Positions 13,034 through 17,719 of a DNA stretch of 64,000 bases are shown piece after piece. The stretch lies in the NCBI RefSeq assembly GCF_009914755.1, contig NC_060928.1; one strand, 5' to 3'. The notes under the pieces are model-generated. The model was not told the origin of the DNA, made no database searches, and saw only the letters and a list, made by a program, of their open reading frames with translations. The position numbers and the translations under genes are program-made. This DNA comes from the human T2T-CHM13v2.0 reference genome, Homo sapiens. The first letter of the stretch is position 1; every line of letters begins with the position of its first letter.

Positions 13034-14046
13034 TTAAGTCTAATATTTTATTTCTCTCATCTACTTATCTGACGATCAATGAAACACAAAATATATTTAT
13101 TCTCATTCATCTAGAAAAAAAATTTGTGACATGCTTTGAGCAAACAATAAACTGTGGTAGAAATAGTACGTTTTGTGTGCATGTTTCATAACCCAGTAGC
13201 TGCAGTATCCCATTTACATTTTCATCCCAAGTAGTTATAACATGCCTGTACCTTAATCATCACTTGTCTACAAACTCCCTGCTTCCATGTCAAGTTCCCA
13301 CTCCTCTTTTTTTTAAAACAATACAAAGTCTTCATAATTTTTCTTTGATTCTAAACCCTGACACCTATTTAAGTTTGAATCAAGGGTGAGAAGGGGTCTA
13401 CTACAGATAAAAATGGGGATAAAAGGACTATCACAGAAGTGTGATATGAGACTATAAAACAAAAAGTATAAAAAACAAAAATACAAAATTACTATCACTT
13501 GGTAAAAACAAAATATCTAACCAAAATATATTAATAGTTCCTGGTTCTTAACATCAGTGAGCCAGTATTAATTTTTAGGTCACCTAGAATTCCAACAGAA
13601 AGATGTTATTCTTAACAGTAGCCAAATAGTCTCCCAAATCACTCCCTCACCTCAGCTTAAAAAAGACCTGTCAAAACTCTCAGTGACCCAAAAGAAAACT
13701 AAAAACCTTTAAGTAGACAAAATCTATACAACAGATACCACGACATATGTCAAGCGGTGGCAGCCACAGCTTCTGCCTCTCTGTCCAATCTCTCTCCCAC
13801 ACTGGAAGTAATTGTAAACTGAAAAACTGGTATAAAAATATATGTATGTCCCACAATGAAGATATCAACTACAGGCAATGAAAAGGCCAATTTGTATAAG
13901 ACTGATGATTACTGGAAAGAGTGTGTCTAAGATAACATATTAAAAGATGTTTAAAATATTTTGCTTCATTTCTGTCAAAAAAATTTTTTTCACATAGGCA
14001 TTAAACAAGATTACCTGTAAGACTACTGCAAAGACTATAGGAATTA

Positions 14047-14184
<138 letters not shown>

Positions 14185-14810
14185 CTATCACAGAGTTCAA
14201 TTTTTAAAGCAAAGTTATTAAAATTGTCTATGGCCATTCTATGATCTTAAAGGAATGGAATAAGCAGAAGGGATGACTATATACATACAATTTTTCTTCT
14301 TAAATACAAATGCATTCTGATAAATGTTATTTGATTTCCTTACATACTAGCAAAATTACTGTAAGTTAATGCTCTGTAAGTGACCCATTATTTCATATTT
14401 TGTATTTATTTAAAATGCTAGTTCATGAAAACGGCTACTCTCTAAAGAGACAACAACAAGACTTTTAGAGCCATACTATTACTATTTTCATGTTTTACCA
14501 ACAACACTGGTAAAACCCCACAGATCTTTATGATCAATAAGTAGTTAATTTAGTTCTGTCATCTAGACTACAAAGTGTGTGTTTGTCTCTCTTTCCTGTC
14601 TGCACACATACTGACACACACACATACACACATATATAAATACACATATTTATTATATCAATGCAATTTGCTAGCTAATTTAACTTAGGGGAAAGTTTGA
14701 AAAACTGAAGATTCATTTCAATACACAAATTTACATAAAAGGGATATTGCATATTAAAACAAAAATGATTCGACCTAATTCACATACAAGATTTTTCTGA
14801 CAATGATTCA

Positions 14811-15008
<198 letters not shown>

Positions 15009-15764
15009 TTATTGTGTATTCAGTTATTTACAAGACTCTTCTAAATAAACAATTCCTTTTAAAAATCATCAGGTTAAATCATATGAAATTGTCACTTCTG
15101 TGACCATTCAAAAATGGTCAAGTATTAGCAGTTTTATACAACCCATCTAAAAGCTTCAGATAGGAAGGAAATGAGCTTCCAAAAATGATCTAAAGCTTTC
15201 TATCTAAATCCTAACTATACTATCTGAATAGTTTCATTTGTTATTGGTATCATACTATCCCTAACCTTATAAATACTGAGTTTGAGTTATGACGAATTTT
15301 ATTTTCATAATTTACCTATATGATTTTTAAGCCACATTTATAAGGTATAGAAAAAAGCAAAATAAAATTGTTCATTAAAAAAATTACATACTTTTTCTCT
15401 AATTTACACCAACTACAGTTTATTTTCTCTCCATAAATTTTGGCATTTATTACAACGACAAATTTAGCCAAACTGCTTTCACCAAAACCTGCAACAGTTC
15501 TTGTGGCAAAATCAATGTCAGGCCAAAACTTGATCTTTCTGAGTTGGCTGTTTTTATTCCATAACTAGCACACAGACACTAATTACATCCCTTATCTAAG
15601 TCAGTTGTTTCAAAAATTGTGCTGCTACTCATAATAAGGTTCTGCATTAGAAAAAGTGTTGAGTGCAAGATCATCAACAGTGCTAAAAGAAACCCAAACA
15701 ATTTTAAAAAATAGTTTTAACAGCCAGTTGACAGTGTTAGCTAACAATATACGTTGTTAGCTTC

Positions 15765-15818
15765 AATTTTCTTCTCTTGCGTTTTTCTTTACGCTTTTGT
15801 CTAAAATTAGTAATTGAA
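15765..15818 (-). repeat. Local duplicate of the TRMT10A exon-3 acceptor and 5' coding end (copy of 14944-14997)
   Basis: 51/54 identical by manual alignment, offset 821 bp. Confidence 0.9.
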
Positions 15819-15869
15819 TTTTAAGTAACACAATTACATTTAATATGCCAAAGGGCTATGCAAGGTTTA

Positions 15870-16184
<315 letters not shown>

Positions 16185-17719
16185 TCAATATGATTAAAGT
16201 TAAACCATAAAATAATATAAATAAAACTTTAGACAAATAAATGTCATTTAATTGTAAATATCATTTAAATACCATTTAATATCAATTAAATATTCAGCAA
16301 TGCTAGTAAAGGTCTAAAGAAATGGGGTGTTTCATATACTACTGGTGGTCATGGTACAATTTTTCCAGAAGGCAACACATATATATGTTTTAAGAGCTTC
16401 AAAATCTCTATTTAGACACCCTTTGACTCAGTATTTCCTTAAATTTCTGTAAATAAATCAGAAATGCACACAAAAATGTGCACAAGAGTATATGCAATGC
16501 AGTGTTATTTTTAACAGTGAAAAGTTAGAAACCTCCTGAATGTCAGTGAAAGGAAACTAAACAATTACGGTTAATCTATAACATGGGCAAGGAATATTAA
16601 GCAGCCAGAAAAACTTATATATCCAAAAATATTTAATGATAAGGGGAAACGGTTATACATTAAACAAAATCAAAGAAAACAATATATACATTACGACCAA
16701 CTTTTTTAAAAAGGTATACACACACACGTTTAATTCTTACCCACAGTTTTCTGCATTTTCTAAAGTTATATAATGAAAATATATTGTTTTTAATAAAACA
16801 AAAAATTTTAAAAAGAGATGAAAAGCATCTTTTCTATAGTCTTTTTTAATGCTGTAGAATGAGGGAAACTACAAAAAGACAGAACTGATTTTTAAAACTG
16901 AAATCAATAACCAAGAAATAAATTCACTTGATACAAATTAAAAATAGGGCAATCAAAATGACTTTAAAATAAATTTGGCTGAAATATTTCAGAGAGGTCA
17001 TAAGGGAATAAGAAGTATAAGAACAAGACAGAAAGTTGTGATATAAAAGCAGGCTTTACTAAAAAGTAAAACAAGAATCAGTGAAAAAGAACAGAATCAG
17101 TGAAAAAGAATCTGTGAAAACTAGGAAATGAAGACATAAAAAGTTCAATAGAAGAGACAAACTCCAGATTATCTGGAGTCCCAAGAAGTAACTGATGACT
17201 TAGAAGACAATCTGACTCAGGATGCAGACACAAATAGAACAGAAAAATAATATGGAGGAGCAGTAAAGACTTGGATAACAGAATAAGAGAGATACAGGAA
17301 AAAAAGGTAATTAGAGATAAACATATAGCCTTGAATGCATTCATTAATTTTTTTAAAAAAAATCTAGAAAGTAAGGTAAGCATTCAATTTAAGAAACTGG
17401 AGGTGGGGAAACTGAATAAGCCTAAAAAGGCTAGATGGAAAAAAATTAAAAAATATGTATTTTGATCCCCTGGATCACTTTTATTTTCCTTTCTTGCAAT
17501 ACACAATACATTAAATAAAATTCAGCTATGCAGGTATCCAAAACGACACCGAGTGGAGGAAACTTAAAAGCACAATTAAAATTCACAGGAAACAAATTGC
17601 TCTCTTCATGAAATAATAATATTCCAAGAGAGTACATTTCTGTTTATCAGTGGCATCATTTTCAGTTAGTTCTCTATTTTATTCAAAAACGGCATGTGTT
17701 GATTAGCTCTATGTGAAGA

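What the first reader, a model, noticed from the sequence alone, without database searches (positions are those of the whole stretch)
15535..15818. Duplicated exon-3 acceptor in TRMT10A intron 2 forms a candidate alternative last exon
Seen: 15765-15818 matches 14944-14997 at 51/54 positions and keeps the 3' splice site (taattttag|ACAAAAG), only 121 nt after the exon-2 donor. Splicing here gives in-frame [20 protein letters not shown] (stop at 15739-37), compared with [16 protein letters not shown] in true exon 3. Two of the three differences in the aligned block are synonymous and one is K>R. A minus-strand AATAAA follows at 15558-15553. Inference: a competing proximal acceptor could yield an 82-aa basic, NLS-like peptide with no catalytic domain, or act as a decoy that lowers TRMT10A dosage. 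This matters because TRMT10A loss causes microcephaly, short stature and young-onset diabetes.
Basis: partly seen in the sequence, partly recalled or inferred. Interest (0 to 1): 0.75.

Follow-up and report, generated by a model that had tools for sequence, protein, structure and literature searches.

The report
Copied splice acceptor inside TRMT10A intron
A short piece of TRMT10A, the end of intron 2 plus the start of exon 3, has been copied into intron 2, leaving a splice-acceptor look-alike that is probably a silent leftover and not a working alternative exon.

Summary
Window 15818-15765 (gene sense strand, minus) matches the true exon-3 acceptor region 14997-14944 at 51 of 54 bases (blastn E 1e-17). 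Ungapped, the match is 59 nt at 92%. These are the only two copies in the 3.1-Gb genome. The reading frame, the stop at 15739-15737, the 121-nt distance from the exon-2 donor and the AATAAA at 15558-15553 are all as described.

The copy covers only 18 intron bases and about 41-56 exon bases. The rest of exon 3 and its donor are not copied.

By sequence the pseudo-acceptor is as good as the real one: the two 23-mers differ at one base. The other supports are weak:
- AATAAA occurs once per 722 nt in this gene.
- Two of three changes being synonymous gives P = 0.08-0.16.
- No strong downstream donor exists.
- None of RefSeq's 7 transcripts, the 7 Vega transcripts described in 2013 or one intronic-polyadenylation atlas table contains such an exon.

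Most likely this is a neutral partial exon duplication that leaves a cryptic 3' splice site used at noise level. No RNA data could be consulted, so low-level use is not excluded.

The parts
15760..15818 (-). High-identity copy of the true exon-3 acceptor region: 18 intron bases plus the first 41 exon bases. The core, 15765-15818, matches at 51 of 54.
14939..14997 (-). Source of the copy: the last 18 bases of intron 2 and the first 41 bases of the true exon 3. Exon 3 is 14817-14979.
   Evidence: hub gene table
15801..15921 (-). The 121-nt interval between the exon-2 donor (CAA|gtatgt) and the pseudo-acceptor AG. This would be the intron removed if the copy were used.
15737..15800 (-). In-frame continuation after the pseudo-acceptor: one split-codon base, 20 codons and the stop TAA at 15739-15737. 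The predicted product is 82 aa.
15724..15742 (-). Probable further stretch of the copy, matching source 14941-14924 at 15 of 19 columns. It is displaced by a 20-nt local tandem duplication whose 8-nt ends lie at 15762-15755 and 15742-15735. The second of these repeats supplies the in-frame stop.
   Evidence: 60 of 2000 shuffles reach the score, so support is only moderate
15553..15558 (-). AATAAA hexamer 179 nt after the stop. It is one of 4 in intron 2.
15581..15589 (-). Nearest donor-like GT downstream of the pseudo-acceptor (GAT|gtaatt, 6 of 9 matches to the consensus, T at -1). It would close a 214-nt exon.
15819..15824 (-). TTAAAA directly abutting the upstream end of the copy. It is paired with a second TTAAAA at 15720-15715, 3 nt after the extended copy. 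Together they may be a target-site duplication.
15715..15720 (-). Second TTAAAA of the flanking pair.

Best explanation
A short segment of about 60-100 nt was copied once into intron 2, 821 nt upstream of its source. It consists of the last 18 bases of intron 2 and roughly the first 41-56 bases of TRMT10A exon 3.

The copy is a partial exon. It has an intact 3' splice site and a purine-rich exon start, but it lacks the remaining two thirds of exon 3 and has no donor. It has since picked up three substitutions and a 20-nt local tandem duplication.

I read it as a neutral relic. It is a cryptic 3' splice site that the spliceosome mostly bypasses, because nothing downstream defines an exon: the donors are weak and the AATAAA is ordinary. 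Any splicing to it would give a small amount of non-productive RNA.

Shown: the duplication, its limits, its uniqueness in the genome, and the sequence equivalence of the two acceptors. Inferred: its neutrality, its low usage, and its origin by a templated insertion or template-switch event.
For: - **Duplication and limits.** 51 of 54, E 1e-17; 59 nt at 92%. There are only 2 places in the genome.
- **Rest of exon 3 not copied.** The remaining 119 nt of exon 3 has no copy in intron 2 in either orientation. The local score is 12, against a mean of 10.96, sd 1.38 and maximum 15 in 200 shuffles.
- **Flanks.** Flank similarity is not above shuffles: 148 of 500 shuffles reach the score upstream and 198 of 500 downstream.
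- **No good donor.** There are 6 GT sites with 6 or more of 9 consensus matches in 15795-15001. The nearest is at 15586, with T at -1.
- **AATAAA.** It is at background frequency, and its downstream TG/GT count (7) and T fraction (0.27) are at or below the medians of 41 intragenic hexamers (7.0 and 0.40).
- **No coding constraint signal.** P = 0.078 with uniform changes and 0.159 with kappa 4. The 20-nt insertion breaks the frame relation.
- **Not annotated or reported.**
  - None of the 7 RefSeq transcripts has it (hub table).
  - The 7 Vega transcripts described in PMC3814312 code for 339, 200 or 206 aa or are retained-intron forms (passages).
  - TRMT10A and RG9MTD2 occur 0 times in the one readable supplementary table of the intronic-polyadenylation atlas PMC5928244.
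  - 0 papers hold TRMT10A together with 'cryptic exon'.
Against: - **Competent by sequence.**
  - The 23-mer from -20 to +3 differs from the true site at one base.
  - Branch-point-like UnA motifs lie at -22, -26 and -34, against -20, -30 and -41 at the true site.
  - No AG lies between them and the splice site.
  - Predicted local accessibility is similar for both sites.
- **Position favours use.** The intron it would close is only 121 nt. From recalled general knowledge, not tested here, this is within the range where human splice sites can pair across the intron without exon definition, and the site is transcribed before the true acceptor.
- **Enhancer content.** The copy keeps the purine-rich exon start. 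One substitution creates a GAAGAA, a motif recalled as a splicing enhancer.
- **Annotation is weak evidence.** Absence from annotation does not rule out unstable or tissue-restricted transcripts.
- **Untested.** No RNA-seq, 3'-end or cross-species data were available to me, so neutrality and low usage are not tested.
Confidence: 0.7

Rival explanations
1. Dosage valve or decoy. The proximal acceptor is used, or engaged unproductively, in an appreciable share of transcripts. The resulting RNAs carry a premature stop, a retained remainder of intron 2 or an early 3' end, and this lowers TRMT10A output.
For: - Acceptor equivalence, comparable branch-point motifs and no intervening AG.
- Similar predicted accessibility.
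- A short 121-nt upstream intron.
- Weak true exon-3 sites that leave room for competition: the true donor AAG|gtatca matches 5 of 9, and the pyrimidine fraction is 0.67.
- Decoy exons that promote intron retention are an established class (PMC6097662 and PMC7373989; I saw only the search listing and abstract starts).
Against: - No annotated transcript shows it (hub table).
- No paper links TRMT10A to cryptic exons.
- Per the abstract start of PMC7373989, the decoy-exon model involves predominantly introns over 1 kb, and decoy splice sites (plural) are essential for activity. Here the intron is 942 nt and only an acceptor is present.
- Use of the site is untested.
Confidence: 0.17
2. True alternative last exon. 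Splicing to 15800 and cleavage after the AATAAA at 15558 give a stable mRNA, immune to NMD, for an 82-aa basic, nuclear-targeted peptide with a function of its own.
For: - The frame stays open for 20 codons after the junction and the stop would lie in the last exon.
- AATAAA lies 179 nt after the stop, with one UGUA within 60 nt upstream.
- The first 89 residues of TRMT10A were predicted to hold nuclear localisation signals (PMC3814312, passages).
Against: - AATAAA is expected by chance, at 1 per 527-722 nt.
- The hexamer lies 363 nt from a 7-of-9 donor. From recalled knowledge, not tested here, U1 snRNP suppresses poly(A) sites at that range.
- There is no signal of protein-level constraint.
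- The stop comes from a 20-nt secondary duplication.
- No 82-aa isoform appears in RefSeq (hub table) or in Vega as described in 2013.
- It is not in the readable table of the intronic-polyadenylation atlas.
Confidence: 0.05
3. Chance similarity of low-complexity, purine-rich sequence, or an assembly artefact.
For: The exon part is A/G-rich and lysine/arginine-coding, which raises background similarity.
Against: - The match includes 18 non-repetitive intron bases that are identical.
- E is 1e-17 locally and 6.8e-15 genome-wide, with no third copy.
- The copy has diverged (3 substitutions and a 20-nt insertion), which is not what a collapsed or duplicated assembly error would look like.
Confidence: 0.01

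Closest known systems
Unannotated intronic homologues of exons (tandem or intragenic exon duplications; Ivanov and Pervouchine 2022, PMC9013439; Letunic et al. 2002 as cited there)
   Same: - An annotated exon has a homologue inside an intron of its own gene.
- The homologue is not a dispersed repeat.
- It lies upstream and in the same orientation.
- That study reports 116,320 exon-target pairs in human genes and RNA-seq support for some unannotated ones (passages).
   Different: - Only about a quarter to a third of the exon is copied, 41-56 of 163 nt, together with its acceptor.
- There is no donor and no conserved length or phase, so it cannot act as a mutually exclusive twin.
- TRMT10A is not named in that paper's main text (0 occurrences).
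- Its tables are on an outside repository, and its supplements could not be read.
Pseudoexons and cryptic 3' splice sites (review PMC8819188, seen as search listing and abstract start only)
   Same: An intronic sequence with a competent-looking splice site that is absent from annotated mRNA. It could be activated by a mutation that supplies the missing partner site.
   Different: Its origin as a copy of the gene's own acceptor makes it exactly as strong as the true site. Most pseudoexons only resemble consensus sites. No activating variant or patient is known from my searches.
Decoy exons that promote intron retention (Parra et al. 2018, PMC6097662; PMC7373989; abstract starts only)
   Same: A non-productive splice site inside an intron that could engage the flanking constitutive sites and reduce productive splicing.
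   Different: Per the abstract start of PMC7373989, the model involves predominantly introns over 1 kb, and decoy splice sites (plural) are essential for activity. Here the intron is 942 nt, only the acceptor is good, and neither retention nor conservation is shown.
Intronic polyadenylation isoforms with a skipped terminal exon (atlas: Singh et al. 2018, PMC5928244)
   Same: The proposed architecture is the same: upstream donor, intronic acceptor, stop, then AATAAA.
   Different: There is no 3'-end evidence. TRMT10A and RG9MTD2 do not occur in the one readable supplementary table (three PDF supplements could not be read). The hexamer is at chance frequency.

Membership tests
Alternative last exon (intronic polyadenylation isoform) | A 3' splice site that is used, shown by junction reads or cDNAs | not testable with these tools
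   The sequence is competent, but no RNA data are on hand. None of the 7 RefSeq transcripts (hub table) or the 7 Vega transcripts described has it.
Alternative last exon (intronic polyadenylation isoform) | A poly(A) signal with a context beyond background, and a mapped cleavage site | tested here: not met
   AATAAA is present, but there are 24 per 17,330 nt in the gene and 4 in intron 2. Its downstream TG/GT count and T fraction are at or below the intragenic median. The one readable table of the atlas has 0 entries for the gene. Cleavage itself could not be tested.
Tandem exon duplication giving mutually exclusive exons | Whole exon duplicated with both splice sites, and similar length and phase | tested here: not met
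   The copy covers 18 intron bases and 41-56 of 163 exon bases. The other 119 nt has no match (score 12 against 10.96 +/- 1.38 in shuffles). No donor is copied.
Cryptic 3' splice site / pseudoexon | An intronic sequence with splice-site consensus comparable to real sites | tested here: met
   The 23-mer differs from the true acceptor at 1 base. UnA motifs lie at -22, -26 and -34, and there is no upstream AG within 54 nt. The pyrimidine fraction is 0.61, within the 0.44-0.89 range of the 16 annotated acceptors in the window.
Cryptic 3' splice site / pseudoexon | Not included in normal mature mRNA | tested here: inconclusive
   It is absent from RefSeq (hub table) and from the Vega list described in 2013. 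No expression data were examined.
Poison (NMD) cassette exon | Both splice sites functional, with an in-frame stop | tested here: inconclusive
   A stop is present. The nearest donor-like site is weak: GAT|gtaatt, 6 of 9 matches, T at -1, closing a 214-nt exon. A 7-of-9 site lies 485 nt away. Usage could not be tested.
Decoy exon (intron-retention regulator) | Decoy splice sites that engage the intron's terminal splice sites and raise intron retention | not testable with these tools
   No cross-species genomes or RNA data are available. The structural prerequisites are only half met, since only an acceptor is present.
Dispersed repeat or retrocopy | Many copies in the genome, or a processed (intron-less) structure | tested here: not met
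   There are two places genome-wide. The copy includes intron sequence, so it does not come from spliced mRNA.

The most novel reading that the evidence does not exclude
The copied acceptor is a live competitor. It lies only 121 nt from the exon-2 donor, so it may be paired across the intron and divert a tissue-dependent share of TRMT10A pre-mRNA into dead-end RNA, or into a stable mRNA for an 82-aa nucleolar-targeted peptide. That would be a lineage-specific brake on the dosage of a gene whose loss causes microcephaly and early diabetes. A corollary is that a deep-intronic variant which improves a downstream donor or poly(A) site could explain unsolved TRMT10A-like patients.
Probability: 0.08. 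Interest if true: 0.6.

Novelty: new member of a known kind. Interest (0 to 1): 0.2.

Why it matters
- **If inert.** It is one more small intragenic exon-fragment duplication, and the value is mainly practical. Primers, antisense oligonucleotides, CRISPR guides or short reads aimed at the first ~40 bases of exon 3 and its acceptor have a 94%-identical second target 821 nt upstream.
- **If used.** It would lower the output of a dosage-relevant disease gene. It would also mark a place where deep-intronic variants could be pathogenic, since the acceptor half of a pseudoexon is already in place at full strength.

Tried and rejected
- **Larger or inverted duplication.** I looked for more of exon 3 in intron 2.
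  - The remaining 119 nt of exon 3 scores at shuffle level in both orientations.
  - An 18-of-23 inverted match seen (E 0.23) was not supported.
- **Extension of the copy into the flanks.** Loose-gap alignments are not above shuffles: 148 of 500 shuffles reach the score upstream and 198 of 500 downstream. A specific 19-column extension after a 20-nt insertion is moderately supported, with 60 of 2000 shuffles reaching it.
- **Dispersed repeat or structured RNA.** The genome holds 2 places only. Apart from itself, the rest of intron 2 has one 63-nt match at 82% on another chromosome. Rfam gives 2 matches at E 0.74 and 0.85, far below their gathering scores.
- **RNA structure hiding the pseudo-acceptor.** Predicted unpaired probabilities are similar at both sites: 0.30 against 0.42 for the pyrimidine tract and 0.82 against 0.81 for the AG. 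This offers no explanation.
- **Recursive splicing or a micro-exon.** One substitution creates a GT 9 nt into the copy, but the site matches the donor consensus poorly (my reading).
- **Literature.**
  - TRMT10A with 'alternative splicing': 47 papers, 20 listed, none on TRMT10A's own isoforms judging by title and abstract start.
  - Six mixed terms: only 1 of the 25 papers listed holds TRMT10A.
  - TRMT10A with 'cryptic exon': 0 papers.
  - TRMT10A with 'polyadenylation': 36 papers, 15 listed, none on its 3' ends.
  - RG9MTD2 with 'splic': 10 papers.
  - A 2026 TRMT10A preprint was checked by passages only and has nothing on isoforms.
  - A search for a citation on templated insertions found 0 papers.
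- **Cross-species dating.** This was not possible. No primate or other vertebrate genome is reachable with these tools.

Full report
**What is there**

I read the gene's sense (minus) strand.
- Exon 2 ends at 15922 with the donor CAA|gtatgt.
- The true exon 3 begins at 14979 behind a pyrimidine-poor acceptor.
- At 15818-15765 there is a second copy of the last 18 intron bases, the AG and the first 36 exon bases.
- 51 of 54 positions are identical. The mismatches are at 15791, 15773 and 15771.

blastn extends the match to 68 of 83 with one gap, at E 1e-17. The repeat finder gives a 59-nt ungapped block at 92%, 15760-15818 against 14939-14997, 821 nt apart. It is the longest of 13 direct-repeat families in 13500-16500.

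A search of the whole 3.1-Gb genome finds only these two places, whichever copy is used as the query. So this is a local duplication. It is not a dispersed repeat, and it is not a retrocopy of spliced mRNA, since it carries intron sequence.

- The interval from the donor is 121 nt.
- The frame runs for 20 codons to the TAA at 15739-15737.
- The product would be 82 aa.
- AATAAA lies at 15558-15553.

**Limits of the copy**

The rest of exon 3 (119 nt) has no counterpart in intron 2 in either orientation. Its local score is 12, against 10.96 +/- 1.38 and a maximum of 15 in 200 shuffles.

With permissive gaps, neither flank aligns better than shuffled sequence: 148 of 500 shuffles reach the score upstream and 198 of 500 downstream.

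A specific continuation is moderately supported. After a 20-nt local tandem duplication, whose 8-nt ends lie at 15762-15755 and 15742-15735, the stretch 15742-15724 matches the next exon bases 14941-14924 at 15 of 19 columns. 60 of 2000 shuffles reach that score.

The copy is therefore about 60 nt for certain and perhaps about 75 nt before the secondary duplication. That is the acceptor plus a quarter to a third of the exon, with no donor. The in-frame stop lies in the second unit of the 20-nt duplication. That insertion is not a multiple of three, so the similarity of the two reading frames ends by accident of an indel.

**Is the pseudo-acceptor competent?**

By sequence, yes, to the same degree as the real one.
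- **23-mers.** From -20 to +3 they differ at one base, position -19.
- **Branch points.** UnA pentamers lie at -22, -26 and -34 at the copy and at -20, -30 and -41 at the true site. Neither has an AG between these and the splice site.
- **Pyrimidine tract.** The fraction from -20 to -3 is 0.61 against 0.67. Both are low within the 0.44-0.89 range of the 16 annotated acceptors in the window.
- **Accessibility.** Predicted local values are alike.

What differs is the downstream side.
- The true exon 3 is closed by a donor 163 nt away.
- After the copy, the nearest donor-like site is GAT|gtaatt at 15586, with 6 of 9 matches and T at -1.
- The only 7-of-9 site lies 485 nt away.

From recalled general knowledge, weak acceptors depend on such exon definition, which would explain why the copy is bypassed. 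Also from recall, introns as short as 121 nt can be defined across the intron. That argues the other way, and it is why I do not put the relic reading higher than 0.7.

**The poly(A) and coding arguments**

AATAAA occurs 24 times in the 17,330-nt sense strand of the gene and 4 times in the 942-nt intron 2. Composition alone predicts one per 527 nt. The hexamer at 15558 has a downstream TG/GT count of 7 and a T fraction of 0.27. These are at or below the medians of 41 intragenic hexamers, 7.0 and 0.40. It is therefore not evidence for a terminal exon.

Two of three substitutions being synonymous has probability 0.078 under uniform changes and 0.159 with a transition bias. That is not evidence of protein-level constraint.

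**Outside evidence**

- **RefSeq.** The hub's table has 7 transcripts, and none has an exon between 14980 and 15921.
- **Vega, 2013.** Igoillo-Esteve et al. 2013 (PMC3814312, passages) describe seven Vega transcripts. Three code for 339 aa, two for 200 and 206 aa, and two are retained-intron forms. None codes for 82 aa.
- **Localisation signals.** The same paper reports predicted nuclear localisation signals in the first 89 residues.
- **Polyadenylation atlas.** The one readable supplementary table of an intronic-polyadenylation atlas (PMC5928244) holds neither TRMT10A nor RG9MTD2. Three PDF supplements could not be read.
- **Searches.** Full-text searches found no paper on a TRMT10A cryptic exon, intron-2 event or alternative 3' end. 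A 2026 TRMT10A preprint, checked by passages, says nothing on isoforms.
- **Genome-wide survey.** A survey of exon homologues within parent genes (PMC9013439, abstract and passages) shows that such pairs are common: 116,320 in human genes. It reports that some unannotated ones have split-read support. TRMT10A is not named in its main text.

**Origin and age**

These are inferences.
- **Age.** Three differences in 54 bases give a Jukes-Cantor distance of 0.058 (95% range 0.012-0.172). That is roughly 29 My (6-86) at 1e-9 per site per year if both copies drift, and twice that if only the intronic copy does.
- **Size at origin.** The abrupt edges, with unrelated flanks, suggest that the event was small from the start. 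A decayed large tandem duplication would look different.
- **Flanking repeat.** TTAAAA abuts the copy at 15824-15819 and recurs at 15720-15715, 3 nt past the extended copy. The intron holds 5 such hexamers in 942 nt.
- **Reading of the repeat.** This could be a target-site duplication from repair of a staggered break with a templated insertion. From recall, the motif is also the preferred L1 endonuclease site, but there is no A-tail. I noticed it after the fact, in AT-rich DNA, so I rate it a lead only.

**Verdict**

The proposal that it forms an alternative last exon or a dosage decoy is a fair hypothesis from the sequence. Nothing I could reach supports it, and two of its three props, the AATAAA and the synonymous changes, are at chance level.

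The most likely reading (0.7) is a neutral relic that acts at most as a noise-level cryptic 3' splice site. An appreciable non-productive drain gets 0.17, and a true 82-aa isoform gets 0.05.

It belongs to a known kind, intronic exon-fragment homologues and cryptic splice sites. I did not find it described in my searches.

Interest is low (0.2). It has a practical side, a second near-identical target for reagents aimed at the start of exon 3. It also has a clinical side, a ready-made acceptor where a deep-intronic variant could complete a pseudoexon.

Noticed in passing
window 15824-15819 and 15720-15715 (minus strand): The same six bases, TTAAAA, flank the copied segment on both sides. This may be a target-site duplication of a small templated insertion. 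There are 5 such hexamers in the 942-nt intron, so chance is not excluded.
   Followed up: partly
window 15762-15735 (minus strand): A 20-nt local tandem duplication lies inside the copy, with 8-nt identical ends at 15762-15755 and 15742-15735. Its second unit supplies the in-frame TAA that ends the hypothetical peptide.
   Followed up: yes
window 14817-14997 (minus strand): The true exon 3 has weak splice sites. Its acceptor has a pyrimidine fraction of 0.67 and a longest pyrimidine run of 4. Its donor, AAG|gtatca, matches 5 of 9 consensus positions, joint second lowest of the 17 annotated donors in the window. The exon probably relies on its purine-rich start for recognition; this is inference.
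   Followed up: partly
window 14603-14649: A degenerate CA/TA-rich short tandem repeat lies in intron 3, just downstream of exon 3 (family D2).
   Followed up: no
window about 15074-15138: A segment of about 63 nt in intron 2 matches one place on another chromosome (G000 contig C16) at 82% identity, E 6.3e-7. It is probably a fragment of an old repeat.
   Followed up: no
window 15760-15818 against 14939-14997: Reagents aimed at the acceptor and the first ~40 bases of exon 3 (guides, primers, antisense oligonucleotides) have a second site with 92-94% identity 821 nt upstream. A 2026 preprint describes a guide RNA against exon 3 (passages). I did not see its sequence, so I could not check for overlap.
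   Followed up: no
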